From NCBI GenBank assembly GCA_022340905.1, contig JAJDNB010000040.1:9603-73602 (forward strand): a stretch of DNA of 64,000 bases, given 5' to 3'. Of this stretch, positions 5,537 through 51,656 are shown piece by piece (within the stretch, counting starts at the first letter, position 1; every line of letters starts with the position of its first letter). The DNA is from Deltaproteobacteria bacterium. GTDB taxonomy: Bacteria; Desulfobacterota; Syntrophobacteria; BM002. The notes below the pieces were generated by a model. That model saw nothing but the letters and a program-made list of their open reading frames with translations. It was not told where the DNA came from and ran no database searches. The translations under genes were made by a program, and so were the position numbers.

Positions 5537-5953
5537 AAATAGTACTCCTGTCTTGTGGGCTCGGGCTGGAGGGCACAATGGACTGGATTGTAAATGGTCT
5601 AGGTTCAACAATAAAGTAGTTTTTACCCTTGAATTTCTCACTTTGCAATGCAATAATTAGCGAAGTTACGAAATTACAATCATTTTTTCTTTCCGGGTAT
5701 TTTTGGCCTAAAGTGTGATTTTCGGACGCGATTTCAGCTTTTTTCATCCTTTTACCCGTGGATCTTTTAGACACTGCCGGTGACTGAAAAGTGGACGGCT
5801 GTTTGCGACCAGTTTTGCTCAAAAAGGGCACAGGACGGAGGAGTTGCGACTGGGGCCCGGCGAGAAACACAATTTTTTGTTTCTTGGTCGAACTGGCAGG
5901 GTGCTTCTCTTGTCTGTACACGGGTTAAAGCCCCTAAAGGTAAGCACAACTTC

Positions 5954-7354
5954 ATGGAGAAGACCATAAACATAGTTGTCTCAGAGCGGATCAGAGTGCC
6001 TGCCGCATATCTACCTCCGATGCTCAAGAAGAAGCTCACCGAAAGGCTTGTCTTTACCAATCCAGAGTATGAGTTTCGCCAGAGTCGGGGTGAGTGGTTG
6101 GGAAGCATACCGCCCCAGATTCACTGTATGTATGAGCAAAGACGCAATTATTTTATACCTAAAGGATTTCTTCATCAATTGTTGGATCTCTGCCAGAGTT
6201 TTGGTGTCAAGTACCGACTGACTGACCGACAACGGGAGCTTGAACCGGTTGAGTTCCAATTCCACGGCGTATTGAAAGACTACCAGGAGCTGGCCTATGA
6301 GGAAATGACAACGAGAGATCACGGCACTTTGGTTGGCGGTGCAAAGAGCGGAAAAACAGTTATTGCCCTCTATCTTATGTCCCAACGTCAACAGCCAACA
6401 ATGATTGTTGTACCCAATGTTGCTCTGCTGGGCCACTGGAAGGAAAAGCTTGTTCGGTTCCTCCAGGTGTCTCCGGATGAAGTGGGCATCATAGGCGAAG
6501 GCAAGTTTGAGGTGGGGCCCCGTGTTTCAGTGGCACATGTGAGCGCTCTTTACCGCCGAGTACGTGAGGTGCGTGACAAGGTGGGGCATTTGGTGGTAGA
6601 TGAGTGCCACCGTACTCCCTCTCGTACTTTTACCCAGGTAGTTAGCAATTTTGACTGCCGCTTTTTGTTGGGATTATCTTCTACGAATCAGCGGCGAGAC
6701 CGGCTCTCACGTCTCATTTACTATTATGTGGGAGACATTCTTCATCAAATTGATGCTCGCAAAGCAACAGAGATAAGAGCAATATTCCAGGCCGACGTAG
6801 TGGTTCGTCAAACAGATTTCGAGTATCCCTACCAAAGCAGTGAGGATTATCCTGCCATGCTTGAGGCCCTGGCCAGAGATCCGGAGCGTAATCGGCTCAT
6901 TGCAGATGACGTCTCCAGCGAAATAAACGAAGGCGCTGGAGCCCCACTTCTGGTGTTAACCCAAGATGAGGACCAGGACCACACCTTGAAGGATATGCTG
7001 GACGAGGAGGGAGTCTCGAGCGTGTCGATAGACCCTGACCTGATTGCGAAAGGGGAAAAGGGGTTAGACAAACAATTGAAGAGCAAAGACATCCAGGTGG
7101 TGTTGGCCAACCGTCTTTTATTTCAGCAGGTGATTTCTGAGACAAAATTTAAAGCTCTCTTTCTTACTACTCCTCTCAATTTCAGGGGGAAGACAATAAG
7201 TTGGTTTCAGGAGATATTGAGACGCGATGATGGCCAGCGGCTGATAAAGGTATACGATTATGTGGATACTAAGATAAGCATCCTCGACAACTTCTTCCGC
7301 ATGCGCAGTTATGCTTATGGACTGCGGCTACCAAGAGCTGCTCCCCCCAAGTAA
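5954..7354 (+). CDS. SF2 DEAD/DEAH-like helicase (XPB/Res-III-like) with degenerate motifs IV-VI
   Basis: Q-motif LKDYQ, SGKT Walker A, DECH, GLSST, terminal VYDYVD; ATG 5954 preferred over the ORF-track start 5780. Confidence 0.85.
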   Translation: MEKTINIVVSERIRVPAAYLPPMLKKKLTERLVFTNPEYEFRQSRGEWLGSIPPQIHCMYEQRRNYFIPKGFLHQLLDLCQSFGVKYRLTDRQRELEPVEFQFHGVLKDYQELAYEEMTTRDHGTLVGGAKSGKTVIALYLMSQRQQPTMIVVPNVALLGHWKEKLVRFLQVSPDEVGIIGEGKFEVGPRVSVAHVSALYRRVREVRDKVGHLVVDECHRTPSRTFTQVVSNFDCRFLLGLSSTNQRRDRLSRLIYYYVGDILHQIDARKATEIRAIFQADVVVRQTDFEYPYQSSEDYPAMLEALARDPERNRLIADDVSSEINEGAGAPLLVLTQDEDQDHTLKDMLDEEGVSSVSIDPDLIAKGEKGLDKQLKSKDIQVVLANRLLFQQVISETKFKALFLTTPLNFRGKTISWFQEILRRDDGQRLIKVYDYVDTKISILDNFFRMRSYAYGLRLPRAAPPK

Positions 7355-7386
7355 CTCCCCTCCCTCCCATCTCTGGCAGGAAGAAA

Positions 7387-7500
7387 TCAGAGGTCAGAAA
7401 TCAGATGCCAGAGGTCAGGGAAAAACCTGATCTCTGATCTCCGGCTTCTGACGTCTGTGGCGGACGATTTCAACGATTTGAAGGATTTGTCTAATGGACT
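7387..7500. repeat. Composite intergenic repeat: TCAGAGG heptamers with inverted arm, then ACGATTT-type nonamers
   Basis: tcagagg tcagaaa tcagatg ccagagg tcaggg ... cctgatctctgatct ... acgatttca acgatttga aggatttg. Confidence 0.8.
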
Positions 7501-7556
7501 TAGAGAAAGCTGACCCCAATGCGCCTGGCGCTTTGCTGTGGCCATGAGGAGAACTG

Positions 7557-8336
7557 TTGAGTAAGTTGCGAGTCGCTATCGGCGAACACCTAGAGAACTG
7601 TTCCCAAGTGATTACTCTCGGTGTACGTTCTCAGATAAGTGATTACACCCGAGAGGAGCGGGAACTGCTCCGGACTGCAGATATTATATTTTTTCCAACA
7701 ACCAAATTTGCAGATCTCTTTGCAACCCTGGGAAAGGTAACGTATCCAAGCGTTAACTGTTACCGTTTGCGAGGTGAGAGGCTGAAACACGTAGCCTTGC
7801 TTCGTATGCTTAAAGTGCCCTATCCGCGCACGCGCGTCTATTATGGTCAAAAGCAGAAGCAAAAGATTCTCGAGGATTTTGCATTTCCATTCATTGCCAA
7901 GAATCCCCTGAGTTCAGCAATTGGGAAGGACGTTTTTCTTATAGATAACAGCCCCAAACTGCAATGGTACAACAAAAAATGCAACCCAGCCTACATTCAA
8001 GAGCAGGTAATACCGCAGATGGAATTGCGGGTGGCTGTAATCAACTACCAGAAGGTGTTCGGTTCCTACCGTTGGATAGTTGGTGAGGATTCTCGCGCAA
8101 GTTCCGATCATGGCACCGAATGGCAGACAAAAAATATGCCTAGTGAAGCAATTACCCTTGGAAAGAATATTGCCTGTCAGGGCAGTCTCTCTGAGGTGAC
8201 GGTGGAGATGATCTTCGACGGAAGTCAGTTTCAGGTTGTTGAACTCACCTTCCCATATGGTCAAACTGAAACGCTTCACACCGGACACGAACGGCTTAGG
8301 GCGATCTTGGAGATGATCGAAGGAGGAGAGCTTTAG
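7557..8336 (+). CDS. RimK-like ATP-grasp protein with degenerate catalytic motifs
   Basis: GAGGAG RBS with TTG start; VPYPRTRVYYG, FPFIAK, GKDVFLI, PAYIQEQ, ELRVAVI fit the RimK-like ATP-grasp fold. Confidence 0.75.
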   Translation: MSKLRVAIGEHLENCSQVITLGVRSQISDYTREERELLRTADIIFFPTTKFADLFATLGKVTYPSVNCYRLRGERLKHVALLRMLKVPYPRTRVYYGQKQKQKILEDFAFPFIAKNPLSSAIGKDVFLIDNSPKLQWYNKKCNPAYIQEQVIPQMELRVAVINYQKVFGSYRWIVGEDSRASSDHGTEWQTKNMPSEAITLGKNIACQGSLSEVTVEMIFDGSQFQVVELTFPYGQTETLHTGHERLRAILEMIEGGEL

Positions 8337-8401: not shown

Positions 8402-8431
8402 TTGACACCTTAGAGCGCACCTCGTTATAAT
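8402..8431 (+). promoter_or_regulatory. Sigma70 promoter of tRNA-Leu
   Basis: TTGACA (8402-8407), 18 nt, TATAAT (8426-8431): perfect hexamers just upstream of the tRNA. Confidence 0.9.
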
Positions 8432-8445
8432 CACACCACTAATAT

Positions 8446-8533
8446 GCCGGAGTGGTGAAACTGGTAGACGCGCTGGACTCAAAATCCAGTGGGCCTTGTG
8501 CCCGTGGGAGTTCGACTCTCCCCTCCGGCACCA
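8446..8533 (+). tRNA. tRNA-Leu (anticodon CAA), CCA encoded
   Basis: GCCGGAG acceptor stem, D-loop TGGTAGAC, anticodon stem CTGGA-CTCAAAA-TCCAG, long variable arm, GTTCGAC T-loop, CTCCGGCACCA end. Confidence 0.98.
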
Positions 8534-8544
8534 AGCGACTGCAA

Positions 8545-8590
8545 GGGGGTTGGCGGGATAGCCGCTGACCCCAAAGTGTTTTGTTTTTTG
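8545..8590 (+). terminator. Intrinsic terminator after tRNA-Leu
   Basis: GGGGTTGGCGG-GATAG-CCGCTGACCCC hairpin followed by a T-rich run. Confidence 0.7.
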
Positions 8591-9032: not shown

Positions 9033-11246
9033 TTGAGCCTAAAAAGCATCCGCGACATTAGCCTAAAGTGGAAGTTATTGATCCCCTTTCTGTTTCTCTC
9101 CTTTGTGGGAACTAGCTCACTAATTCTTTTAGATTTGAATAACCAGAAAAGGCTAATCGAGTACCAGGAGAAGAAAAAGCTGTATGATTATTATCGAGCC
9201 TTTTCTGACCACATTGAGGATCTCGAACGTTCAGCATTGAGTCTGGCTTACCAAGTCGCAAAATCGCCGACAGTGCAAGAGGCATTTGCCCGCAGAGATA
9301 CCAAAGCGCTTATTGATTTACTGCTACCCTCCTACGAGGTTCTGGAAGATCAGTTCGATGTGAAACAGTTTCACTTTCACACCAAACCAGCCACCTCTTT
9401 TCTGCGACTGCATCGGATCTATCAGTCCGGCGAGGCGATGGCATCCTTTCGTCATACAATTACGAGGGTGGAGGAGACAGGCCAAGCCGTTGCCGGGTTA
9501 GAACGAGGTACTACTGGATTCGGAGTTAGGGGCGTCGTACCAGTGTTCTATAACACTGAATTTGTCGGAACCTTTGAGATCGGTTACGCTGTCGAGGGTC
9601 ATTTTCTAGATTCCCTCAAGCGTCGATACGACATGGATCTTGCCCTCCTCATTCCAATCCACGGAACTGGCGGCTTTTACACCCTGGCGGCCTCCTCGTC
9701 AAACTTACAGATATCAAGTGACGAGATCTGTAGGGATGTATTGCGAACTCAAAGCCCCCACATAATGATCAGCCCGCTTGCTGCCACCGGATTGGCTCTT
9801 TTCCTGGGCCCGCTGAAGAATTCTGCCGGGAAGAGCATTGGGGTGGTGGAGATCAGCGTTGACAGATCTGCCACTCTTGCCGAGTTGGCCGAAAACAGGA
9901 ATGAGATGTTTGCTGTTATGGTGGCAGCCCTGCTGTTTTCGTCTATTATTATTGTTTGGGTGGTGACGATCTTTCTTCGCCCTGTCCGGGATATTGTTTC
10001 AGCTGCTCGGGACATAGCTGCGGGCGATCGAGTCCGGGGAATTTTTGTGCCAGTCCGTGATGAGATCGGAACCCTGGCCGACTCTCTCAATGACATGCTC
10101 GAATCCCTCAACAGGGCAAGGCAGGAGATTCAAGAATATTGCATTACCTTGGAAGAGAGAGTAAAGGCGAGAACCCAGGAGCTCGTGGAAGAGAAGGAAA
10201 AATACGAGACATTAGTGGAAAATGCCCCTCTGGTTGTCTATCGCATTGAACCAGATGGAACGACCGTTTATGTTAACAGAGTTGTGGAGGACATACTTGG
10301 ATATACACCCACGGAGGTAATAGCTGACAGAGAATTCTGGACGAAAATCACACATCCCGATGATCAGCAGAACCTTGCCAAACAACTAAGGGCATGTCTC
10401 GCAGAGGGTAAGGAATTATTGCTTGAATACAGAGGCAATCGCAAGGACGGCCGTGAATTATTTCTGCTAAACCATGCAATACCCTTGACTGATAGTGGGG
10501 GCAGGGTGCAGGCGGTGGATGGTATCATTGTAGACGTGAGTGAGAGGAGACGGCTACAGGAGCAGATAATTCAGACCGAGGAACTCAAAACTCTAAGCAA
10601 TGTTTCTGCCAGGCTGGCACACGAAATACGTAACCCTCTCACCTCAGCTGGTGGCTTTGCCCGAAGGCTGCTTCTAGAGATGGATCAGGACAATGCTCAG
10701 AGGAAGAAGGTTGAGATTATTGTTCATGAGGTCCAGAGGCTCGAGCAAATTCTCAAGATGATCCTAACATACATTCGGCCAGTTCCCCTGGAATTTTCTT
10801 TAGTGGACTTGAACGGGCTTTTAGAAGGAGCTATACGCAAGTCCGCGGAAAAGTTTGACCAACGGGGGATCGAGGTTGAGGTTGAGCTGGATGAAAAACT
10901 TCCTTACATTCTTGCAGACCGCGGCCACTTGAGCAACGCGTTGGAAAGAATTCTGCGCCAGGCCTGCAAACACATGCCGGAAAGATCTCGCATGAAGATA
11001 ACTACCACGACAAATGGTAAAGCAGTGGTTCGACTCTCTTATCCTGCACTCCATCTGAAAGGTGATGATATGGAGCACTTTTTCTACCCCTTTGTGACCG
11101 AGGAACTGGCGGAAGCTGACCTCGAGTTGCCCATGACCAAAGTAGTGATTCATAAACATGGGGGGATTATTCATATTACCCGGGTAGATGATGACCAGAT
11201 TCTCGTCTCCATTACCTTTGTTCCCGTGGGGCAAGTGAGGACATGA
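9033..11246 (+). CDS. Membrane sensor (Cache-HAMP-PAS-HisKA) with degenerate HATPase domain; probable pseudokinase
   Basis: Two TM helices around a Cache-like region (FLRLHR, GLERG..GFGVRGVVPV), HAMP, PAS, H-box AHEIRNPL; N, G1 and G2 boxes not recognisable. Confidence 0.85.
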   Translation: MSLKSIRDISLKWKLLIPFLFLSFVGTSSLILLDLNNQKRLIEYQEKKKLYDYYRAFSDHIEDLERSALSLAYQVAKSPTVQEAFARRDTKALIDLLLPSYEVLEDQFDVKQFHFHTKPATSFLRLHRIYQSGEAMASFRHTITRVEETGQAVAGLERGTTGFGVRGVVPVFYNTEFVGTFEIGYAVEGHFLDSLKRRYDMDLALLIPIHGTGGFYTLAASSSNLQISSDEICRDVLRTQSPHIMISPLAATGLALFLGPLKNSAGKSIGVVEISVDRSATLAELAENRNEMFAVMVAALLFSSIIIVWVVTIFLRPVRDIVSAARDIAAGDRVRGIFVPVRDEIGTLADSLNDMLESLNRARQEIQEYCITLEERVKARTQELVEEKEKYETLVENAPLVVYRIEPDGTTVYVNRVVEDILGYTPTEVIADREFWTKITHPDDQQNLAKQLRACLAEGKELLLEYRGNRKDGRELFLLNHAIPLTDSGGRVQAVDGIIVDVSERRRLQEQIIQTEELKTLSNVSARLAHEIRNPLTSAGGFARRLLLEMDQDNAQRKKVEIIVHEVQRLEQILKMILTYIRPVPLEFSLVDLNGLLEGAIRKSAEKFDQRGIEVEVELDEKLPYILADRGHLSNALERILRQACKHMPERSRMKITTTTNGKAVVRLSYPALHLKGDDMEHFFYPFVTEELAEADLELPMTKVVIHKHGGIIHITRVDDDQILVSITFVPVGQVRT

Positions 11247-11324: not shown

Positions 11325-11834
11325 GTGAAGGCACTGGAGATTGACGTGACAGATATGATGAAAAGATCTGACCATGGCCAGGGAGAACTGACCAAGCTCC
11401 AGAAAGATGGAATCGCAGCTAAGCTGTCAAACAATCCCATAGTGAAGTTCATGTCCATCGGGCTGAGGGAGGTGCATAGAGGCGAGGCTACGCTCATTTT
11501 GAAAGACCGAGAGGAATTGCGCAACTCCATGGGGTTATTACAGGGCGGTATTTTGGGTGTACTGGCGGATGCGGCGGGCGGTGTTTCCCTCTACTCCGTA
11601 TTGTCTGATCCTCTGAAAGTGGTGATTCCAACGGTGGAGTTCAAGGTGAACTTTCTGAGGCCAGCCAAGGAAGGAGACGTGGTAGCCCGTGGCAGAGTGG
11701 TTCACAGTGGACGGCAAATCGCTGTTTGCCAGGTGGAGGTTTCTTCAGAAGGCGGGGTATTGCTGGCCACTGGGGTTTTTACTTACATGATAAAATATCT
11801 AGATGAAGAACAGGGCATAGAGCATAGAGCATAG
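11325..11834 (+). CDS. PaaI family hotdog-fold thioesterase
   Basis: RNSMGLLQGGILGVLADAAGG, TVEFKVNFLRPA, GRVVHSGRQIAVC. Confidence 0.9.
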   Translation: MKALEIDVTDMMKRSDHGQGELTKLQKDGIAAKLSNNPIVKFMSIGLREVHRGEATLILKDREELRNSMGLLQGGILGVLADAAGGVSLYSVLSDPLKVVIPTVEFKVNFLRPAKEGDVVARGRVVHSGRQIAVCQVEVSSEGGVLLATGVFTYMIKYLDEEQGIEHRA

Positions 11835-11839
11835 GGCAT
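11813..11839. repeat. Heptamer tandem repeat GCATAGA overlapping the PaaI-gene stop
   Basis: gggcataga gcataga gcatagg gcat; encodes the tail GIEHRA and the TAG stop. Confidence 0.85.
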
Positions 11840-11949
11840 TCAGTTCAGTCGTTGCAAACGCAAAACTCGTTTCTGCCGCTTACCGATTACCATTCACCAT
11901 TTCCTATTTCGTACCCATTTGAAAAGTAGCGATAGGGGAGAAGCAAGTA

Positions 11950-13866
11950 ATGAAACAAATTATCCTGGGCACTGCTGGACACATTGACCACGGGAAGACG
12001 ACTTTGATCAAAGCCATCTCTGGGATCGACACCGATCGCCTCAAGGAAGAAAAGGAAAGGGGTATAACCATTGAATTAGGTTTTGCCCACCTCACACTTC
12101 CCAACGGTCAAGAGCTCGGTATTGTTGATGTACCTGGTCACGAGAAATTCGTGCGACACATGGTGGCGGGAGCAACAGGAATAGATATAGTAGCTCTCGT
12201 TGTAGCGGCTGACGAGGGGGTTATGCCCCAGACCAGAGAGCACTTAGAGATATGTGAACTCCTCGAAGTTAAACAGGGGCTGGTGGTTCTGACCAAGACT
12301 GATCTCGTGGAAGATCGCGATTGGATAGATTTGGTGCAGGAAGATATCCATGATTTCTTGCAGGGGACGTTTCTCGCTTCTGCGCCCATAATAGCGGTTT
12401 CAGCTGTAAGCGGCGAAGGGCTAGGGGAGTTGCTGGAAAGTTTGCAGAAACTGAGCGAATCAGTGGAGGCCCGCCCGAGTAGCGGAGATTTCCGGCTAGC
12501 AGTAGACCGAGTTTTCACTATGAAAGGATTTGGCACGGTAGTGACAGGCACTGCCATCTCGGGCAAGACTGAGACAGGGGACACCCTTGTGGTCTATCCT
12601 CAGATGCTCAAAACCAAGGTGCGTGGAATTCAAGTGCACAATCGGGAGGTAAATGAAGCCGTCAGTGGGCAGCGTACAGCCATAAATTTACAAGGTCTAG
12701 AAAAGGCGGCTCTTGAGCGAGGAAATGTGTTGGCAACACCAGAGAGCCTTGTTTCCTCATATATGGTTGACGTGCGGTTGCATCATTTGGAAAACGCTCC
12801 CCGGGTGCTGAAAAACAGGGCTAAGATTCGCTTCCACACCGGAACCAGTGAGATAATCGGCACCTTGATACTTCTGGACACCGATGAGCTGAAACCAGGT
12901 GCCAGCGGTTATGCCCAGGTGAGATTAGACAAACAGGTGGCTGTTCGCAATGGGGATCGTTTTGTTCTCAGAAGCTATTCACCCATGCACACCATCGGTG
13001 GTGGCCAGATACTACATCCCAACCCGAAGAAGCGCAGGAGAATGGTGGGCAAGACTATAGAGGCCTTAGGAGTGCTCGAAAGAGGAGAGTCTCATAAAAT
13101 GGTAGAACTCTACCTCAAAGAAGCGGGATTTGACGGGGTTGGCGAGAGGGCTCTGACAATACTTGCCAATATCACCCAGAAGGAACTCCGTAGTCTACTT
13201 CAGGACATGATGAGCCGAGGCGAGGTGATTCAATTTGATCGGGAAACTCCCAGATTCGTGCACGAGGAAGCTTTCGGGAAGCTCAGACAACTACTGCTGG
13301 ACCACCTAGCTGAATTCCACCGCAAAGAGCCTTTGCGGGCAGGAATTAACAAGGAGGAATTGTTCGGGCGCTTGCCCCGAGGAGCTGACGGCAAGTTGTG
13401 TAATGAACTGATTCAGCGGTTGACTCGCCAAGGTGAAATCATTCAAGAAAGGGATCTGGTGAGACTCTCCTCTCATCAAATTGAGCTTGCGGGAAAGCAA
13501 GATGAGGTGCGAGAGAAGATAGAATCAATCTACCGAGATGCGGGCCTGCAACCCCCATTCTTTAGAGAGGTAGCCCGATCTCTTGGAGTCCCAGATAAGG
13601 AAACTCGCCAAATCCTTTCTTGGATGTTGGAGCAGGGGTTACTCGTCAAGGTTAAAGAGGATATGTATTTTCACTACGGAGCCCTTGATGGGCTTAAGCA
13701 ACAGCTACTGGATTTATTTGAGGAACGGGAGGAAATAACAACCCCCCAGTTCAAAGAACTCACGCAAACCAGTCGAAAATACACCATTCCCCTTCTCGAG
13801 TTTTTGGATGCCAGTCGATTTACCATACGAGTAGGAGATGTTCGCCGTTTGAGACAGAAAAAGTAG
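11950..13866 (+). CDS. selB: Selenocysteine-specific translation elongation factor
   Basis: [33 protein letters not shown]; C-terminal winged-helix region with [13 protein letters not shown]. Confidence 0.98.
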
Positions 13867-13886
13867 GCTACGCAGCGGACTACTCC

Positions 13887-14101
13887 TAACAACTAGGCAC
13901 TACGCACTAAGGACTAAGCACTAAAAAGATATTCTATTAATATTTGAAAATACTGGGAAAGTATACTTTTTACTAGAATTAACTTTAAATGTATACGTGA
14001 GAACAAAAAGCTTAAACATGGCACTTTTAAGGTCGACGATCACCCTCGGACAAATACTTTTGCCTGGTGCTTAGTGTCTAGTGCTCGGTGCCTACTTGTT
14101 A
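13887..14101. repeat. Long imperfect inverted repeat (37-bp arms) around an AT-rich ~140-bp core, between convergent selB and pyrD
   Basis: Arms 13887-13923 and 14065-14101, 29/37 matches by hand, built of GCACTA(A/G) units. Confidence 0.75.
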
Positions 14102-15031
14102 CCTGGCAACCTCAAGGGTGCCGATTATTTGGTTGATGTCTCTGAGCCCTTGCTGGCGGAGATAATCCTCTAACCCGGAGATAATATCTAGGGTAACCTG
14201 CGGATTGACGAAGTTGGCAGTGCCAACCTGAATAGCCTTGGCACCGATGATCAAAAATTCGAGAGCGTCTTCCACAGAGACTATTCCTCCGAGCCCGATA
14301 ACCGGCAGATTGCTTGCTTGGATTACTTGCCACACCATTCTCAGGGCGATGGGTTTGATGGCTGGGCCAGAAAGCCCTCCCACCACATTGCCCAGCCGAG
14401 GCCTTCGTGTTTGAGGATCAACGGCCATACCGGCAACTGTATTTATCAATGAGAGAATATCTGTGCCTGCATCCTCCGCAGCTTTTGCAGGAAGAGTTAT
14501 GTCAGTGACGTTTGGAGTAAGTTTGGTAATCACTGGTAGGTTAGTTCTAGATCTGACGGCGGATACAACCTGGAATACCATCTTAGGATCCGAACCAAAT
14601 GCCATTCCCCCAGCCTTGACATTTGGACAAGATATGTTGATCTCCAGTGCGTCTATACCCTCATGGCCATCTAGCCCTGCTGCCAACTCACCATACTCTT
14701 CCACGGTATTGCCGAATAGATTTACTATCACAGGTACTTGTAAAGGCCTGAGGTGGGGAAGTTTTTCCCGCAAGAAGGTCTGAAGACCGACATTTTGCAA
14801 GCCAATGGAATTAAGCATACCGCCGCACGTCTCCCATATGCGAGGAGGCGGATTACCTGACCGGGGTTCCAATGAGATGCCCTTTACCACGACCCCACCT
14901 AAATTTTCGAGTGGCACGAGAGCGGCGTATTCCTGCCCATAACCAAAGGTACCTGAGGCCACCATTACCGGGTTTTTCAACCTCAGGGGTCCAAGTTCAA
15001 CTGCTAGGATTACAGGGCTATTAATGGTCAT
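14099..15031 (-). CDS. pyrD: Dihydroorotate dehydrogenase B, catalytic subunit
   Basis: LKNPVMVASGTFGYG, MLNSIGLQN, EINISCPN, KLTPNVTDI, GGLSGPAIKP. Confidence 0.97.
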   Translation of the reverse strand: MTINSPVILAVELGPLRLKNPVMVASGTFGYGQEYAALVPLENLGGVVVKGISLEPRSGNPPPRIWETCGGMLNSIGLQNVGLQTFLREKLPHLRPLQVPVIVNLFGNTVEEYGELAAGLDGHEGIDALEINISCPNVKAGGMAFGSDPKMVFQVVSAVRSRTNLPVITKLTPNVTDITLPAKAAEDAGTDILSLINTVAGMAVDPQTRRPRLGNVVGGLSGPAIKPIALRMVWQVIQASNLPVIGLGGIVSVEDALEFLIIGAKAIQVGTANFVNPQVTLDIISGLEDYLRQQGLRDINQIIGTLEVAR

Positions 15032-46475: not shown

Positions 46476-46538
46476 AACACAAGAGAATTTAAATGATTTT
46501 GACTCGACTTCCCTTCTCGCCCGACCTCCCGTCTCGCC
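46446..46538. repeat. Nonamer repeat palindrome overlapping the rarA 3' end
   Basis: agcgagact ggcgagacg agcgagacg then TGA; inverted unit cgtctcgcc at 46530-46538. Confidence 0.75.
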
Positions 46539-47158
46539 GCACGGTGCTCCACCACAAGTACAGGAAGACAGAAGGCGTTTTGACTCGCATAACCATTATT
46601 AACATAGTGATTTTGTTGGTGTTTATGAGTGCCGTGCACGGGTTGGCGGAGGAGGGCGAGTTGTCCTCAGCACGAGGTATTGAACGTTACCAAAAGCTCG
46701 TGCAGGCTAATCCGCAGAAAGCTCCCTATTGGAATGCCCTGGGCTACTACTATCTCAAGTCCGGAGATCTACAAACAGCGAAAACAAACTTTGCAAAAGC
46801 AATTGAACTCGACGGGACTTACCCGATTCCCCACAACAATCTAGGAGTTGTCTATCTGAAGCAAAAACTCCCCGAGCAGGCAGAAAGCGAGTTTCGCCAG
46901 GCTGTCAGACTAAATCCCCATTACTGCAAGGCTCAATACAACTTGGCAGTCGCTCTCTTCCACCAGAAACGTTACATGGATGCAGGCAAAGCCTATATGA
47001 AAGCTCGGGATTTAGACAGTAAGTATGTTGAGCGGAGGAATAGCCGAGAAAATCTAGAAAGGAAGATAGAGAAGGTTTTGGACGACAAGGTAGATGAGGA
47101 CGATAAATCCACTCAAGAGTTAAAACGGATGAGGCAATGGTTCGCTCCCTCCTACTAG
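46493..47158 (+). CDS. Exported tetratricopeptide repeat protein (true start may be TTG 46580)
   Basis: Signal-like hydrophobic stretch, then TPRs (YWNALGYYY, PHNNLGVVY, AQYNLAVAL). Confidence 0.85.
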   Translation: MILTRLPFSPDLPSRRTVLHHKYRKTEGVLTRITIINIVILLVFMSAVHGLAEEGELSSARGIERYQKLVQANPQKAPYWNALGYYYLKSGDLQTAKTNFAKAIELDGTYPIPHNNLGVVYLKQKLPEQAESEFRQAVRLNPHYCKAQYNLAVALFHQKRYMDAGKAYMKARDLDSKYVERRNSRENLERKIEKVLDDKVDEDDKSTQELKRMRQWFAPSY

Positions 47159-48069
47159 GCAGATTTGGCTGGTGCTGGATTTTTCTTCTTCCCCTAGCGG
47201 TTCTGGTCCAGCCGGTGGCGGCCGGGGAAAGGGCGGATCGTTTATGGGACCTGGCAAATCATCTCTACGACAAGCAAGACTACTACCGGGCCTTGACCGA
47301 GTACCAACGTTTTGTTTTTCTCTTTTCCGAAGATCAAAGAAATGACCAGGCAAAGCTTCAAATCGGCAGGTGCTATCGACGGGAGGGTGAGACTAATAAG
47401 GCTTTCAGCTACCTGATCAGATTGTATAAAAGCACGGCGGAAAAACCGATTGGGCCTGAAATCTTGTTGGAGATGATAGCCATCCGGCAGGATCAAGGAC
47501 GGAATTCCAGGGCCGTCTATTGGACGAAACAGTTCATTGAGAGGTATCCTGACTGTAAGGATCTCGATACCGTCTACCTGAGCCTCGCGTGGCTCCAAAT
47601 CGACAGCGGTAAGTATGATTCAGCAGTGGCCACCCTTGAGCGGATTCAGCCGGAGAGTGCTCACTACTCCACGGCAAGATCACTGCGTGGGGCATTGCAG
47701 CAGCGGCCGGAAGTAGGGCAGAGGTCTCCTACAATGGCAGGAGCCCTGTCCGCAGTCTTGCCAGGTTCAGGCCACCTTTATGCTGGTCGCCCAGCTCAGG
47801 CTGCCTCATCGTTTTTACTCAACGCACTATTTATTACGGGGGCGGTTCTGGCCTTTGAACATGACAGCCCGGCCCTTGGTGGAATTCTGGTATTTTTTGA
47901 AATGGGCTGGTATGTGGGGGGAATCCGCAGTGCTGTGCAAGCGGTCCGGGAGGAGAACCAGAAAGAAGAAATTCACTACCGCCGGGAGCTTAAGGAAAAA
48001 TACCGGCTTTCTTTTGGCCTGGAGCCCAGGAAAGATCGACTAGCGCTCTACCTACGTCTGAGCTTTTAG
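47137..48069 (+). CDS. TPR / BamD-like protein with C-terminal membrane segment
   Basis: YYRALTEYQRF, AKLQIGRCY, FIERYP; C-terminal ALSAVLPGSGHLYAG and TM helices. Confidence 0.7.
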   Translation: MVRSLLLGRFGWCWIFLLPLAVLVQPVAAGERADRLWDLANHLYDKQDYYRALTEYQRFVFLFSEDQRNDQAKLQIGRCYRREGETNKAFSYLIRLYKSTAEKPIGPEILLEMIAIRQDQGRNSRAVYWTKQFIERYPDCKDLDTVYLSLAWLQIDSGKYDSAVATLERIQPESAHYSTARSLRGALQQRPEVGQRSPTMAGALSAVLPGSGHLYAGRPAQAASSFLLNALFITGAVLAFEHDSPALGGILVFFEMGWYVGGIRSAVQAVREENQKEEIHYRRELKEKYRLSFGLEPRKDRLALYLRLSF

Positions 48070-48131
48070 GGATAGACAGTAAATATTTCCCAGGTAGTGT
48101 ACAATACATCAAGCGAGTAGGGATTGCCTAC

Positions 48132-49592
48132 ATGCAATTAAGAGCCGATGCCAGGGAAAGCATTAAACCTTTTAGATTGGTGAAGTATTTTTCATTGACC
48201 AGCCTGGTGGTGATTCTCATTCCGACCCTGTTGCTCTCCATCTTCATATCTCAGCGTGCCAAGAACGAACTTCTCAGAAAGAGCGAGCAGTACGCCCTCC
48301 TTGTTGCCACAAATTTGAACCATCAAGTTTTCACCCAATTCGTCCTGCCCACTGTGCTCAAATACGGCCAGATCCGACTTGGCGACCCTAAACAGTATGA
48401 GCGCATGGACAAGGTTGTTCGTAATACCATTCACGGATTCAATCTCTACCGGGTGGATGTGTATGACTTACATGAGATGGTTGCCTATAGTACAGACAGT
48501 TCCTTGGTTGGGCTCGCAGGCTTGGGGGGAATCGATTTCAAGTTGGCCCGCGAAGGCAAGTCTTCATCACAGCTAATCTCCCGTGGAAGTTTCCTTGGTT
48601 TCGAATTGGGCGCAGTAGCAAAGCAGAGGCAGCTGAAGACTTACATTCCATTTCGGATGGAAAGACCATTAGGGCGGGGCTATGGTCGAATATTGGGGGT
48701 TTTTGAAATTACCCAGGATATCTCTGAGGATTATTCAGCCATTACTCGTTTTCAAAACATAATTATAGCGAGCTTGATTGGGGTGATGAGCCTTCTGTTT
48801 TTTGTCTTGCGTTTCATTGTAAAACGAGGCGAAAAAATCATCGCCAAAAGAGCCGAAGAGAAACGTCGTTTAGAGGATCAACTGCATCAGGCTGAGAGGA
48901 TGGCAGTCCTAGGCAAAATGGTAGCCGGCATAAGCCATGAAATCCGGAATCCACTTGGGATCATTGGCTCTACTGCCCAGCTTCTCCATGATAAAATGGA
49001 TGAGAGCGATCCCAAAAAACAACTGGGTGAGATAATTATGGAGGAGGCGACCCGTCTCAACTCGATCGTTACAGATTTTCTGGATTTTGCCCGACCCACT
49101 ACTCCAAACTACTCCGAGTGCAGAGTAGATATGGTACTGAGAAGAAACCTGAAGTTTCTCGAAGTTGAACTGGAGCGGCGAGGCATTAGCGTGGAAGTTC
49201 TCTTTGCCGAAAATGGAAGTCCAGTTGTCGCCGATGGCGACCTTCTGTATCGCGCCTTCCTCAACATTTTCGTTAACGCCATGGAGGCGTTGGACGACGG
49301 GGGTACTATCCGGGTAGTTACTCGGTATCGAGATCACCTAGAAGATACCTTGGAGGTAATTATAATGGACACGGGCTCCGGTATTTCTCGGAATGATATA
49401 GGGAAAATATTCGATCCCTTTTATACCACCCGCAAGACCGGAACCGGCTTGGGACTTGCCATAGTCCGAAACATAATCGAGAGCCACGGTGGTACAGTCG
49501 ATATCAAGAGTCCACCACCAGAAGAGCTGGCGCAGCTAGAAAAAAAGGGAACGGCTATTATCATTTCTTTGCCTGTATACCCAGAGCTTTAG
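48132..49592 (+). CDS. Sensor histidine kinase with intact catalytic boxes
   Basis: Two TMs; H-box SHEIRNPL, N-box NIFVNAMEA, G1 DTGSGI, F-box FDPFYTT, G2 GTGLGLAI. Confidence 0.95.
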   Translation: MQLRADARESIKPFRLVKYFSLTSLVVILIPTLLLSIFISQRAKNELLRKSEQYALLVATNLNHQVFTQFVLPTVLKYGQIRLGDPKQYERMDKVVRNTIHGFNLYRVDVYDLHEMVAYSTDSSLVGLAGLGGIDFKLAREGKSSSQLISRGSFLGFELGAVAKQRQLKTYIPFRMERPLGRGYGRILGVFEITQDISEDYSAITRFQNIIIASLIGVMSLLFFVLRFIVKRGEKIIAKRAEEKRRLEDQLHQAERMAVLGKMVAGISHEIRNPLGIIGSTAQLLHDKMDESDPKKQLGEIIMEEATRLNSIVTDFLDFARPTTPNYSECRVDMVLRRNLKFLEVELERRGISVEVLFAENGSPVVADGDLLYRAFLNIFVNAMEALDDGGTIRVVTRYRDHLEDTLEVIIMDTGSGISRNDIGKIFDPFYTTRKTGTGLGLAIVRNIIESHGGTVDIKSPPPEELAQLEKKGTAIIISLPVYPEL

Positions 49593-49684
49593 GAACTACG
49601 AACAGCTGACAGTTGCCAGCGAGCAGCAAAGGATTAGTATCAGGGTATCTTGAATTACTTAGAGCAGCAGGATAGTAGATAATC

Positions 49685-51175
49685 ATGGAAACCGTTCTGA
49701 TCGTTGACGACGAAAAGAATTACCTATTGGTTTTAGAAGCTCTCCTTACCGACGCGGGTTATGAGGTGATTACCTGTGACAACGCCGGTGAGGCTCTTGA
49801 GATTACTACGAGTCATGACCTGGATCTGGTCATAACTGACATGAGGATGCCAGGTGTAGACGGGATGGAGTTTCTGGTTCAATTGAGGGGTCGTCTACCG
49901 GAGATCCCGGTGATCATGATGACCGCATATGCCACGGTGGAAAAGGCTGTAGAAGCCATGAAGAGAGGCGCCTTTGACTATATTACCAAGCCTTTCAAGA
50001 ATGAAGAACTTATACTAACCATTCGTAAAGCCCTAGAGATGCACCGCCTCAAGCGAGAGAACCGTTTGCTCAGCCAGGAACTGCAAGAGCGCTTTAAATT
50101 CGGCAACATTGTTGGTAAGAGCAAGGTTATGCAGCAGGTCTATGAGATTATCGAAAAGGTGGCTCAAACCCGGGCATCAGTGCTGGTGACTGGTGAGTCA
50201 GGTACAGGCAAGGAGCTTATCGCCAGAGCAATACATTTCAACAGCCCCAGAAGTGATAAACCGTTCATTACGGTTAACTGTTCAGCCTTACCGGAAACCC
50301 TGCTGGAAAGCGAACTCTTTGGCCACGAAAGGGGTGCCTTTACCGGGGCTGTAACCAGGCGAAAAGGTCGTTTTGAATTGGCTCATAACGGAACCTTATT
50401 CTTGGACGAAGTGGGCGATATGTCTCCTGCTCTGCAAGTGAAGTTGTTGAGAGTTCTGCAAGAAATGAGATTTGAGCGTGTGGGCGGTACTGCCACCTTG
50501 CAGGTAGATGCCCGCCTGGTAGCCGCTTCTAACCGCGATCTCAAGCGGGAGGTGGATCTCGGACGGTTCAGGGAGGATCTGTATTATCGGTTGAAAGTTG
50601 TTCATATACATGTACCCCCGCTCAGAGAACGGCGTGATGACATACCACTTTTGGTTCACCATTTTTTAAGAAAGGTGGCCAAGGCCAACGAGCTTCCAGT
50701 AAAAAATGTAAGCCATGAGGCAATTAAGTGTCTGTACCAGTATGACTGGGTTGGTAACGTCCGCGAACTAGAGAATGTCATAGAACGGGCAGTAATTCTA
50801 TGCGACGGTGATGATATTAGGACCCAGGATTTGCCTGAGGAGCTGTTCCAACATCGACTGCCAGGTATTACAGAAGGGGCCACGGCTCAAACTGAAAGTA
50901 TCTCAGACCTGGTGGGAGAGGGCGAATTTCTGCCCTATCTCGGGCTCAATCAACGGCAAATGAAAGCAATTAATTTTATAAAAAAGAACGGATTCATCAC
51001 GAACAAATACTACACGCAAATCAACTCGGTGATGAAAACGCAAGCGAAAACCGAACTGAGACAGCTCTTAGATCAGGGGCTGATCAGACGAGTTGGTAAG
51101 GGGCGAAACGTGCGCTATCTACTTCCATCACCGACCAATCGCCGACCGATTACCGACCGATTACCGACCGATTGA
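49685..51175 (+). CDS. Sigma-54-dependent response regulator (NtrC family) with atypical winged-helix C-terminus
   Basis: Receiver (VDDE, TDMRMP, TAYA, KPF), AAA+ GESGTGKE, ESELFGHERGAFTGA, FLDEVG, GNVRELEN; no Fis-type HTH. Confidence 0.95.
   Translation: METVLIVDDEKNYLLVLEALLTDAGYEVITCDNAGEALEITTSHDLDLVITDMRMPGVDGMEFLVQLRGRLPEIPVIMMTAYATVEKAVEAMKRGAFDYITKPFKNEELILTIRKALEMHRLKRENRLLSQELQERFKFGNIVGKSKVMQQVYEIIEKVAQTRASVLVTGESGTGKELIARAIHFNSPRSDKPFITVNCSALPETLLESELFGHERGAFTGAVTRRKGRFELAHNGTLFLDEVGDMSPALQVKLLRVLQEMRFERVGGTATLQVDARLVAASNRDLKREVDLGRFREDLYYRLKVVHIHVPPLRERRDDIPLLVHHFLRKVAKANELPVKNVSHEAIKCLYQYDWVGNVRELENVIERAVILCDGDDIRTQDLPEELFQHRLPGITEGATAQTESISDLVGEGEFLPYLGLNQRQMKAINFIKKNGFITNKYYTQINSVMKTQAKTELRQLLDQGLIRRVGKGRNVRYLLPSPTNRRPITDRLPTD
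51131..51174. repeat. 11-bp tandem repeat x4 (CCGACCGATTA consensus) at the regulator 3' end
   Basis: ccgaccaatcg ccgaccgatta ccgaccgatta ccgaccgattg; stop TGA at 51173-51175. Confidence 0.9.
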
Positions 51176-51466
51176 TTGCTGCCAGTCCATGCTCCTTTGA
51201 TATTAATTCTCGTGATATCAGCATATTAGAGTACTTTGCGGGGTTGGGCTATGATTCCAAGGTTCAACGAATGATTCACTCGCTCGGCAAGAGGTTCTAT
51301 GGTATTGTTATTATTTGATAATTATTTTTTTCGGTGCTCCTTGTTGAATAAAGTCAAAGCTGGTAAGAAATTTGCTAATCTAGTTAGACCGAGTAAGGAT
51401 GGTAAGGTTACCAGAATAATGAATGCCCTGCCTTCTTGACTCTTCAACTCTTTTTCTCCTTTCTCC

Positions 51467-51506
51467 GACCGTCTGGATGTGGCCCCGTCCAGACGGTCTT
51501 TTTTTT
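51467..51506 (+). terminator. Intrinsic terminator upstream of the hrcA promoter
   Basis: GACCGTCTGGA, 10-nt loop, TCCAGACGGTC, then T8. Confidence 0.85.
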
Positions 51507-51587
51507 GACTCTCGCACTCCATTGCTCTCTCGGAGCAAAAGACTCAGTTCACTCTTTGCATTTAGTCAGTTGCCCACTATTTGTTTC

Positions 51588-51616
51588 TTGACAAAGGATG
51601 TAGTGATTGCTAATTT
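51588..51616 (+). promoter_or_regulatory. Sigma70 promoter of hrcA-grpE-dnaK
   Basis: TTGACA, 17 nt, TGc-TAATTT, immediately upstream of CIRCE. Confidence 0.6.
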
Positions 51617-51617
51617 T

Positions 51618-51644
51618 TTGGCACTCTTTAGAAAGGAGTGCTAA
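51618..51644 (+). promoter_or_regulatory. CIRCE operator (HrcA binding site)
   Basis: TTGGCACTC-N9-GAGTGCTAA, one mismatch to TTAGCACTC-N9-GAGTGCTAA, 12 nt before hrcA. Confidence 0.95.
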
Positions 51645-51656
51645 TATATCTAGGCC

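What the first reader, a model, noticed from the sequence alone, without database searches (positions are those of the whole stretch)
10590..11246. Sensor kinase with intact phospho-His but no ATP-binding boxes
Seen: H-box AHEIRNPLTSAGGF is intact. The N box reads ERILRQACKHM, G1 (DxGxG) reads SYPALHL, the F box FFYPF is kept, and G2 (GxGLGL) reads EADLEL. Established: the N and G boxes are needed for ATP binding, and ChpT and DivL are precedents for pseudokinases acting as phosphotransferase or allosteric sensor. No response regulator is adjacent. Inference: a Cache/PAS-gated phosphatase, phosphotransfer acceptor or heterodimer partner in an unknown relay.
Basis: partly seen in the sequence, partly recalled or inferred. 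Interest (0 to 1): 0.62.

Follow-up and report, generated by a model that had tools for sequence, protein, structure and literature searches.

The report
Conserved sensor pseudo-histidine-kinase, no ATP site
This gene encodes a membrane sensor that keeps the phospho-histidine helix of a bacterial histidine kinase but has lost every ATP-binding residue. The same design is conserved under selection in hundreds of sulfate-reducing and syntrophic species, so it is a working non-kinase signalling protein and not a broken gene.

Summary
ORF 9033-11246 (+, 737 aa) reads dCache_3-HAMP-PAS-HisKA, followed by a C-terminal domain that scores 15.7 bits on HATPase_c (cut-off 26.4). A normal kinase in the same window scores 85.7 bits. 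H530, E531 and N534 are intact. The N-box Asn is Gln, the G1 Asp is Tyr, and the G1 and G2 glycines are gone.

This is not decay or an assembly error:
- At least 561 relatives occur in Desulfobacterota genomes, and none of the 85 I read has DxGxG or GxGxG.
- The gene turns up without indels in independent sediment metagenomes.
- dN/dS of the degenerate domain is 0.17-0.27.
- The domain still models as a GHKL-type alpha/beta sandwich (best match ZraS).

Conservation runs opposite to a normal kinase. The phospho-acceptor helix is nearly invariant even between same-genome paralogs whose sensor regions are about 20% identical. The ex-ATPase domain is the fastest-evolving part. No response regulator is a recurrent neighbour.

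Best reading (inferred, not shown): an ATP-independent, signal-gated phosphatase or reverse-phosphotransfer module. Many different sensors would act on one shared partner encoded elsewhere, in the functional manner of PhyT and RedE. It is a new variant of a known kind, of moderate interest.

The parts
9033..11246 (+). Whole gene: 737-aa sensor pseudo-histidine-kinase (TTG start; stop included)
   Evidence: ORF. The start matches the N-termini of orthologs (M/V-x-L-R-x-I-H-DISLKWKLL).
9069..9131 (+). First hydrophobic (transmembrane) segment, aa 13-33
   Evidence: Sequence WKLLIPFLFLSFVGTSSLILL. Read as transmembrane from hydrophobicity and its position before the Cache domain (inference).
9165..9872 (+). 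dCache_3 double Cache sensor domain, aa 45-280 (presumed periplasmic)
   Evidence: Pfam PF14827, E = 4.2e-37.
9906..9974 (+). Second hydrophobic (transmembrane) segment, aa 292-314
   Evidence: Sequence MFAVMVAALLFSSIIIVWVVTIF. Inference.
9963..10112 (+). HAMP domain, aa 311-360
   Evidence: Pfam PF00672, E = 4.8e-11.
10197..10553 (+). Cytoplasmic PAS domain, aa 389-507. It is part of the conserved PAS-DHp-CA* module that paralogs with other sensors share.
   Evidence: PAS_4 8.8e-17 and PAS_3 2.3e-16. Conserved across paralogs.
10554..10787 (+). DHp (HisKA) helical hairpin, aa 508-585. It is the most conserved part of the family.
   Evidence: HisKA 6.6e-11. The AF2 model has helices 2-42 and 50-74. 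Helix alpha-1 entropy is 0.67 bits over 79 sequences. dN/dS is 0.04-0.08.
10620..10634 (+). H530-E-I-R-N534: phospho-acceptor His, the acidic residue at H+1, and Asn at H+4 (the HisKA phosphatase position)
   Evidence: Invariant in alignments A1 and A2 and in the 85 genome ORFs, which were retrieved and detected by this motif. Residue roles are taken from PMC3510030.
10788..11243 (+). CA* domain, aa 586-737: GHKL-like fold with the ATP-binding residues lost
   Evidence: HATPase_c 15.7 bits, below the cut-off. AF2 gives an alpha/beta sandwich and Foldseek's best match is ZraS at 2.1e-16. dN/dS is 0.17-0.27.
10944..10976 (+). N-box equivalent ERILRQACKHM. Gln643 stands where the Mg-ATP Asn should be, and this position varies across the family (Q/N/T/K/A).
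   Evidence: Alignment to ZraS, family alignments and alignment to the window's own canonical kinase.
11037..11057 (+). G1-box equivalent SYPALHL. Tyr670 replaces the adenine-binding Asp and His674 replaces a Gly.
   Evidence: Y670 is invariant and H674 nearly invariant in the subfamily. Neither is kept in the most distant members.
11064..11093 (+). DDMEHFFYPF: retained F-box region (conserved signature DDxEHFFYPF)
   Evidence: Found in 115 of 121 proteins and in 67 of 85 genome ORFs by the strict pattern. Most of the other 18 carry a near variant of it; two (L086, L088) end before the CA* domain.
11112..11165 (+). G2/lid equivalent EADLELPMTKVVIHKHGG. The GxGxG glycines are lost. K703 and H709-G-G711 are conserved.
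   Evidence: AF2 confidence falls below 50 for aa 685-697, the former ATP lid.

Best explanation
The gene encodes a member of an old, conserved family of Desulfobacterota sensor proteins. The family descends from ZraS/AtoS/ThkA-type HisKA kinases.

Shown: the catalytic domain keeps its fold but has lost the ATP-binding residues, so the protein should not be able to autophosphorylate with ATP.

Inferred mechanism: a signal at the periplasmic double-Cache domain passes through HAMP and the cytoplasmic PAS domain to the DHp helices. The DHp keeps His530, Glu531 and the phosphatase-position Asn534. It acts without ATP on a response regulator encoded elsewhere. It would do this either as a phosphatase or by taking the phosphoryl group back onto His530, acting as a sink or relay as PhyT and RedE do.

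The DHp alpha-1 helix is almost identical in paralogs that carry quite different sensors, including paralogs within one genome. I therefore infer that many sensors converge on the same partner.

My confidence that this is a conserved, functional, non-ATP-binding pseudokinase is about 0.9. My confidence in the phosphatase/back-transfer mechanism is about 0.45. The confidence number of this field is for the whole statement.
For: 1. Domain architecture, with HATPase_c below threshold. Internal control: the canonical kinase in the same window scores 85.7 bits.
2. Residue mapping onto ZraS-ADP and the window's own kinase: N-box Asn to Gln, G1 Asp to Tyr, G1 and G2 glycines lost.
3. Fold retained: AF2 mean pLDDT 78. 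Foldseek best match ZraS (2.1e-16, TM 0.64), followed by DivL and RetS.
4. Family breadth:
   - 1088 homologs of the C-terminal region.
   - At least 561 loci in species genomes of Syntrophobacterales, Syntrophorhabdus, Desulfatiglandales, Desulfobacterales, Desulfarculaceae, Desulfacinum and Desulforhabdus.
   - 0 of 85 ORFs read has DxGxG or GxGxG.
   - 0 of 31 representatives with the family DHp motif has a canonical CA domain.
5. Purifying selection: dN/dS of CA* is 0.17-0.27, of DHp 0.04-0.08, and of the whole gene about 0.15.
6. Not an artefact: independent sediment metagenomes carry the gene with substitutions only and no indels.
7. Inverted conservation: DHp alpha-1 entropy is 0.67 bits, against 1.81 for PAS and 2.28 for CA*. 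Same-genome paralogs have DHp 61-66% identical and alpha-1 nearly identical, while their sensor regions are 7-21% identical.
8. H530, E531 and N534 are invariant. The H+4 Thr/Asn is the HisKA phosphatase residue (PMC3510030).
9. Orphan status: Response_reg is not among the recurrent families in 77 downstream and 72 upstream neighbours.
10. Precedents with biochemistry: PhyT (PMC5898713) and RedE (PMC2755868).
Against: No biochemical or genetic data exist for any member, so phosphatase or back-transfer activity is inferred only from conserved residues.

An invariant H-box could also be kept for partner binding alone. DivL keeps the motif around its Tyr.

Glu531 is the residue needed specifically for kinase activity in other HisKA proteins. 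Its invariance fits phosphorylation of His530 by someone else at least as well as it fits a pure phosphatase.

RedE needs ADP as a cofactor for its phosphatase activity, and this protein probably cannot bind ADP.

No partner was identified. The genome-search tools were shut, so neither co-occurrence nor the number of paralogs per genome could be measured.
Confidence: 0.5

Rival explanations
1. Substrate or heterodimer partner of a true kinase. His530 is phosphorylated in trans by the ATP-binding domain of a canonical kinase, either within a heterodimer or a higher-order complex. The pseudokinase then passes the phosphoryl group on, adding a second sensory input to another kinase's pathway.
For: Glu531, the residue needed for kinase but not phosphatase activity in HisKA proteins, is invariant even though the protein has no ATP site of its own. 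The nearly identical DHp helices of paralogs would allow mixed dimers. A canonical relative exists with a similar DHp (P0172, MAHEIRNPLTAVRGFAQRL, full N/G1/F/G2 boxes). One paralog sits next to a receiver plus a real PAS kinase (L011).
Against: The real kinase next to the L011 paralog has an unrelated DHp (VHELNNPVAVIGEIAGWI). The window's own canonical kinase also differs in the specificity region. No canonical kinase is a recurrent neighbour. None of the proteins carrying the family DHp has a working CA domain, so a mixed dimer would need a partner from outside the family.
Confidence: 0.2
2. Pure allosteric or scaffold regulator, in the manner of DivL or NifL. The DHp-CA* surface binds a partner (a receiver, a sigma-54 activator or another kinase) depending on the signal, and no phosphoryl group ever sits on His530.
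For: DivL and RetS are among the best structural matches. DivL uses its kinase domains as an input sensor for a phosphorylated regulator (PMC4211667, abstract). Strong conservation of a whole helix face is what a fixed protein-protein interface would produce.
Against: His is retained in every sequence examined, more than 200 in all, although these searches selected on the H-box motif. In DivL the His is Tyr. In NifL, from my own knowledge, the His is dispensable and the GHKL domain still binds nucleotide. H+1 Glu and H+4 Asn are also invariant.
Confidence: 0.15
3. Still an autokinase. The remodelled pocket (Tyr670, His674, Asp678/679, His682, Lys703) binds ATP unconventionally, or binds another phosphodonor.
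For: Within the subfamily several polar residues in and around the former pocket are invariant. The domain is under purifying selection.
Against: All three conserved ATP-contact elements of the GHKL fold are gone. The N-box position varies freely (Q/N/T/K/A). Tyr670, His674 and His682 are not kept in more distant members that share the same DHp, so no family-wide new site exists. CA* is the fastest-evolving domain.
Confidence: 0.07
4. Recent decay, a pseudogene or an assembly error in this one genome.
For: None found.
Against: Hundreds of intact relatives share the same substitutions. dN/dS is well below 1. Independent metagenome contigs show no indels.
Confidence: 0.01

Closest known systems
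ZraS / AtoS / ThkA-type HisKA histidine kinases (NtrB-like group; PDB 9jfj, 3a0r)
   Same: These are the closest relatives by sequence and fold. Profile E-values are 7.7e-39 (ZraS) and 5.4e-37 (ThkA), and Foldseek gives 2.1e-16. AtoS and ZraS are the best NCBIfam models. The HEIRNPL H-box, the F-x-P-F box, the xHGG motif and the PAS-DHp-CA order (as in ThkA) are shared.
   Different: The N-box Asn, the G1 DxGxG and the G2 GxGLGL are all lost. HATPase_c falls below threshold. All NCBIfam kinase models score far below their cut-offs. No paired regulator gene is present.
PhyT (PhyP) of Sphingomonas melonis and related alphaproteobacterial regulators
   Same: A membrane-anchored, sensor-bearing kinase-like protein with an intact phospho-His and a degenerated ATPase domain. 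It works as a phosphotransferase/phosphatase on a regulator that several true kinases feed (PMC5898713).
   Different: [quoted passage not shown] It is a different DHp family (HisKA_2/HWE type, from my own knowledge). The protein here is HisKA-type, an orphan, and occurs as many paralogs with different sensors. No sequence relationship to PhyT was detected here.
RedE of Myxococcus xanthus
   Same: A kinase-like protein that does not autophosphorylate, accepts a phosphoryl group on its His from a receiver (RedD), and dephosphorylates another receiver (RedF) (PMC2755868).
   Different: RedE has no sensor region, is encoded in an operon with its partners, and needs ADP or ATP as a phosphatase cofactor. 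The protein here has lost the nucleotide-binding residues and stands alone.
DivL of Caulobacter crescentus (PDB 4q20)
   Same: A pseudokinase whose DHp-CA core is kept as a regulatory module. It is one of the top structural matches (PMC4211667).
   Different: DivL has Tyr in place of the phospho-His. The protein here keeps His, Glu and Asn.
ChpT / Spo0B dimeric histidine phosphotransferases
   Same: A four-helix bundle with a phospho-His plus a CA-like domain that does not bind ATP. The precedent is cited in PMC5898713.
   Different: They are small soluble proteins with no sensor domains. Neither appeared among the 59 PDB sequence matches.

Membership tests
Class I (HisKA-type) histidine kinase | DHp/HisKA domain with a phospho-acceptor His in an H-box | tested here: met
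   Pfam HisKA 6.6e-11. H530 lies in AHEIRNPL and is invariant in the family.
Class I (HisKA-type) histidine kinase | HATPase_c domain scoring above the curated threshold | tested here: not met
   15.7 bits against a cut-off of 26.4. The canonical kinase in the same window scores 85.7 bits.
Class I (HisKA-type) histidine kinase | N-box Asn (Mg-ATP ligand) | tested here: not met
   Gln643 in this protein. The position varies (Q/N/T/K/A) across the family.
Class I (HisKA-type) histidine kinase | G1 box DxGxG (adenine-binding Asp) | tested here: not met
   Y670-P-A-L-H674 aligns to D-S-G-K-G of ZraS. 0 of 85 genome ORFs have DxGxG.
Class I (HisKA-type) histidine kinase | G2 box GxGLGL (ATP lid) | tested here: not met
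   A-D-L-E-L-P aligns to G-T-G-L-G-L. 0 of 85 ORFs have GxGxG.
Class I (HisKA-type) histidine kinase | GHKL (Bergerat) alpha/beta sandwich fold after the DHp | tested here: met
   AF2 model with pLDDT 78. The top 50 Foldseek matches are almost all histidine-kinase DHp-CA cores or close relatives (DivL, RetS, phytochromes), led by ZraS at 2.1e-16. This rests on a predicted, not a solved, structure.
Class I (HisKA-type) histidine kinase | ATP-dependent autophosphorylation | not testable with these tools
   Needs purified protein and gamma-32P-ATP. Predicted to be absent.
Degenerate-kinase phosphotransferases/phosphatases (PhyT, RedE, ChpT, Spo0B) as a functional class | Conserved phospho-His on a DHp-like bundle plus a CA-like domain without ATP-binding residues | tested here: met
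Degenerate-kinase phosphotransferases/phosphatases (PhyT, RedE, ChpT, Spo0B) as a functional class | Phosphoryl transfer to or from receiver domains, or receiver dephosphorylation, without its own ATP use | not testable with these tools
   Only supporting residues were seen: H530, and N534 at the phosphatase position.
Degenerate-kinase phosphotransferases/phosphatases (PhyT, RedE, ChpT, Spo0B) as a functional class | Sequence homology to a characterised member | tested here: not met
   ChpT and Spo0B are absent from the 59 PDB sequence matches. The closest relatives are active kinases of the ZraS/ThkA type. I treat this as an independent origin.
DivL-type pseudokinase | Phospho-acceptor His replaced (Tyr) | tested here: not met
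   His530 is present and invariant.

The most novel reading that the evidence does not exclude
In Syntrophobacterales, Desulfatiglandales and related Desulfobacterota, a whole layer of sensing is done by non-kinases. Numerous paralogs with different input domains (double Cache, GAF, PAS) share one nearly identical phospho-His helix. They all draw phosphoryl groups from, or gate, a single master regulator that some true kinase charges. Mixed dimers between paralogs are possible. Environmental signals would then be integrated by regulated dephosphorylation and not by regulated kinase activity.
Probability: 0.25. Interest if true: 0.7.

Novelty: new variant of a known kind. Interest (0 to 1): 0.5.

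Why it matters
Automatic annotation calls these proteins 'PAS domain S-box protein' or 'cache domain-containing protein'. Domain counts would score them as incomplete kinases.

The evidence here shows a large, selected family that keeps the phospho-His chemistry and has discarded ATP binding. That changes how the signalling networks of syntrophic and sulfate-reducing sediment bacteria should be read: some 'orphan kinases' are probably signal-controlled phosphatases or phosphoryl sinks.

The shared DHp helix gives a concrete, testable prediction of many sensors converging on one partner. The family also has cultured hosts (Desulfatiglans anilini, Syntrophorhabdus aromaticivorans, Desulfacinum infernum, Desulforhabdus sp. 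TSK), whose proteins could be assayed directly.

Tried and rejected
tRNA-Leu(CAA) at 8446-8533 lies between them with its own 12/12 promoter match and terminator-like hairpin. Orthologs have other upstream genes.
- A conserved adjacent partner: not found. Pfam tallies of 149 neighbours show housekeeping genes only (4HBT 7, GltX-type tRNA synthetase 12, LMWPc 7).
- The receiver-plus-kinase pair beside one paralog (L011): its DHp is unrelated to the family.
- The window's own canonical kinase/NtrC pair at 48-51 kb as partner: only 26% identity, with different residues after the His. Nothing links them.
- A specific NCBIfam or Pfam family for the degenerate domain: none exists. Only the generic PAS model passes its cut-off.
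- Literature searches for this family found only the general precedents.
- P0162, a 1148-aa hit in the representative search, is an acidic repeat protein and a composition artefact.
Paralog number per genome and co-occurrence with candidate partners could not be measured.
Full report
**1. What is there**

The finding lies in the 3' third of one ORF, 9033-11246 on the + strand (737 aa, TTG start). Orthologs begin at the same residue.

Pfam gives these domains:
- dCache_3, aa 45-280, E = 4e-37, flanked by two hydrophobic segments
- HAMP, aa 311-360
- one PAS domain, aa 389-507
- HisKA, aa 522-580, E = 6.6e-11
- a region, aa 629-718, that reaches only 15.7 bits on HATPase_c (cut-off 26.4)

The window supplies its own control. 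The kinase at 48132-49592 scores 85.7 bits on HATPase_c, carries DTGSG and GTGLGL, and is followed by an NtrC-type regulator. Aligned side by side, the control reads 'VNAMEAL ... [43 protein letters not shown]'. The finding's protein reads 'LRQACKHM ... LSYPALHLKGDDMEHFFYPFVTEELAEADLELPMTKVVIHKHGG'.

**2. Which ATP residues are gone**

A profile of the C-terminal 230 residues finds ADP-bound ZraS (9jfj, 7.7e-39) and ThkA (3a0r, 5.4e-37) as the closest solved relatives. The ZraS alignment has no gap through the lid. It maps as follows:
- Gln643 falls on the N-box Asn.
- Tyr670 falls on the G1 Asp.
- His674 falls on a G1 Gly.
- A-D-L-E-L-P falls on G-T-G-L-G-L.

From established knowledge of GHKL ATPases, the Asn holds Mg-ATP, the Asp reads the adenine and the glycines form the lid. 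With all three gone, ATP binding is very unlikely. The F-x-P-F box and the xHGG motif, which are structural, remain.

**3. The fold is kept**

An AlphaFold2 model of aa 508-737, built from a 21-sequence alignment, has mean pLDDT 78. It shows a two-helix DHp hairpin followed by an alpha/beta sandwich. Only the former lid (aa 685-697) falls below 50. Foldseek against the PDB returns histidine-kinase cores and close relatives almost exclusively. ZraS comes first (2.1e-16, TM 0.64), and the pseudokinase DivL and RetS are also high.

**4. It is not decay or an artefact**

- The C-terminal region has 1088 homologs in the protein collection, from 98% down to 44% identity among those listed. All 121 sequences examined have the H-box, 118 match the DDxxHFFxPF pattern, 118 match the K...HGG pattern, and 115 match all three.
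- A scan of one genome per prokaryote species found at least 561 relatives. The 80 loci returned are essentially all Desulfobacterota: Syntrophobacterales, Syntrophorhabdus, Desulfatiglandales, Desulfobacterales, Desulfarculaceae, Desulfacinum and Desulforhabdus. None of the 85 ORFs I read from the loci held then contains DxGxG or GxGxG.
- The degenerate domain alone was searched against 1.84 billion representative proteins. It gives only 1792 hits at E <= 1e-3 and 61 at E <= 1e-10. The first 48 hits checked lack both boxes, and canonical kinases appear from about E = 1e-11. Thirty-one hits carry the family's DHp motif, and none of these has a canonical catalytic domain.
- The nearest canonical relative (P0172) has a similar H-box helix (MAHEIRNPLTAVRGFAQRL) with full N, G1, F and G2 boxes. 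That fits an origin from an ordinary kinase of this branch.
- Against three orthologs, dN/dS of the degenerate domain is 0.17, 0.20 and 0.27. The whole gene gives about 0.15 and the DHp 0.04-0.08.
- The gene's 31-mers occur in at least 20 sediment, tidal-flat, marsh and mangrove metagenome runs. Contigs from three of them span most or all of the domain (X1 in one contig), with substitutions only and no indels; a fourth run covers only its ends.

**5. An unusual conservation pattern**

In ordinary kinases the ATP-binding domain is usually the best conserved part. The DHp residues after the His differ between paralogs, which keeps pathways apart (established knowledge; compare PMC3892784, listed).

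Here the pattern is reversed. Over 79 family sequences, DHp helix alpha-1 has an entropy of 0.67 bits, against 1.81 for the PAS domain and 2.28 for the degenerate domain. Median identity to this protein is 66% for the DHp, 41% for PAS and 30% for the degenerate domain.

The conserved unit is PAS-DHp-CA*. The sensor region in front of it varies: double Cache plus HAMP in this protein, GAF and PAS in others.

Four assemblies each contributed two loci. Their N-terminal regions are 7-21% identical, yet alpha-1 reads SARLAHEIRNPLVxAGGFARRLL in both copies. I infer that the paralogs are not insulated from one another and address the same partner, or one another.

**6. Orphan status**

In the window the gene is bounded by two features:
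- Upstream: tRNA-Leu(CAA) at 8446-8533, with a perfect sigma-70 consensus match and a terminator-like hairpin of its own.
- Downstream: a 4HBT thioesterase, SelB and dihydroorotate dehydrogenase. Several orthologs share this downstream block.

Seven homologs looked up individually are also orphans, except one that lies beside a receiver and a real kinase with an unrelated DHp.

Pfam tallies over 77 downstream and 72 upstream neighbours list thioesterases, a Glu/Gln-type tRNA synthetase, LMW phosphatases and other housekeeping genes. Response_reg is not among the recurrent families.

**7. How it most likely works**

Shown: the architecture, the loss of ATP-binding residues, the retained fold, selection, spread, orphan status and the shared DHp.

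Inferred: a signal received by the double-Cache domain is relayed through HAMP and PAS to the DHp, which acts on a regulator encoded elsewhere without using ATP. His530, Glu531 and Asn534 are invariant. In HisKA proteins the H+4 Thr/Asn is required for phosphatase activity and the H+1 acidic residue for kinase activity (PMC3510030). So the phosphatase residue is in place.

The retained Glu suggests that His530 itself still gets phosphorylated, either by back-transfer from a receiver or in trans. Both behaviours have biochemical precedent:
- PhyT is a sensor-bearing kinase with a degenerated ATPase domain that works as a phosphotransferase/phosphatase (PMC5898713).
- RedE does not autophosphorylate, accepts phosphoryl from RedD and dephosphorylates RedF (PMC2755868).

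I put about 0.45 on phosphatase/back-transfer, 0.2 on trans-phosphorylation by or heterodimerisation with a true kinase, 0.15 on a purely allosteric DivL/NifL-like role, and under 0.1 on residual kinase activity.

The residual-kinase option is weakened further because Tyr670, His674 and His682, invariant in the close subfamily, are not kept in distant members that share the same DHp. No family-wide new binding site has replaced the ATP site.

**8. Comparison with what is known**

By descent this is a HisKA kinase of the ZraS/AtoS/ThkA branch. It fails four defining features of an active kinase: the HATPase_c score, the N-box Asn, G1 and G2. It should not be filed as a histidine kinase in the enzymatic sense.

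By function it belongs with the degenerate kinases (PhyT, RedE, ChpT, Spo0B, DivL), but it shows no detectable sequence relationship to them. It also differs from each one. It keeps His, unlike DivL. It carries elaborate sensors, unlike ChpT, Spo0B and RedE. It is HisKA-type, an orphan and multi-paralogous, unlike PhyT.

I found no paper or curated model describing the family. Public annotations call members 'PAS domain S-box protein' or 'cache domain-containing protein'.

**9. Verdict**

Novelty: a new variant of a known kind.

Interest: 0.5. Pseudo-histidine-kinases are known, so a specialist would not be astonished. The size of the family, the inverted conservation pattern and the prediction of many sensors sharing one phospho-His interface are new and can be tested directly with simple biochemistry.

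Noticed in passing
window 8402-8572: tRNA-Leu(CAA) at 8446-8533 has a perfect 12/12 sigma-70 consensus match (8402-8431) just upstream and an 11-bp terminator-like hairpin (8546-8572) just downstream. It separates the ATP-grasp gene from the sensor gene.
   Followed up: partly
window 5780-8336; L003 13257-15558: A ResIII helicase-like gene and a RimK-like ATP-grasp gene sit side by side. The same pair occurs next to 4HBT-SelB in a distant ortholog's locus, so the pair is conserved on its own. I did not test that.
   Followed up: no
window 46493-52700: Two TPR proteins, a canonical HisKA/HATPase_c kinase (48132-49592), an NtrC-type sigma-54 activator (49685-51175) and HrcA (51657-52700) lie in a row. 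This is the only complete two-component pair seen in the window.
   Followed up: partly
window 11325-15031; L001 10444-14103; L092; L093: The block 4HBT thioesterase, SelB (selenocysteine elongation factor) and dihydroorotate dehydrogenase lies downstream of the sensor gene and is syntenic in close orthologs. There is no terminator-like site on the + strand in the 79-nt gap before the thioesterase, so co-transcription is possible.
   Followed up: no
L094 155-2108: The nearest relative that still has a canonical ATP-binding domain (P0172) overlaps a 121-aa single-domain receiver gene. This hints that the ancestral partner type was a stand-alone receiver. It is a single instance.
   Followed up: no
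loci L012-L091, upstream neighbours: Among 72 upstream neighbours of family members, 12 are class I Glu/Gln-type tRNA synthetases and 7 are low-molecular-weight phosphotyrosine phosphatase/ArsC-type proteins. Whether this reflects shared ancestry of the loci or a functional link is unknown.
   Followed up: no
L001 2108-2725 and 4834-5145; L003 3685-4383: PilZ-domain genes lie a few kb upstream of two orthologs of the sensor gene. I did not check the window for them.
   Followed up: no
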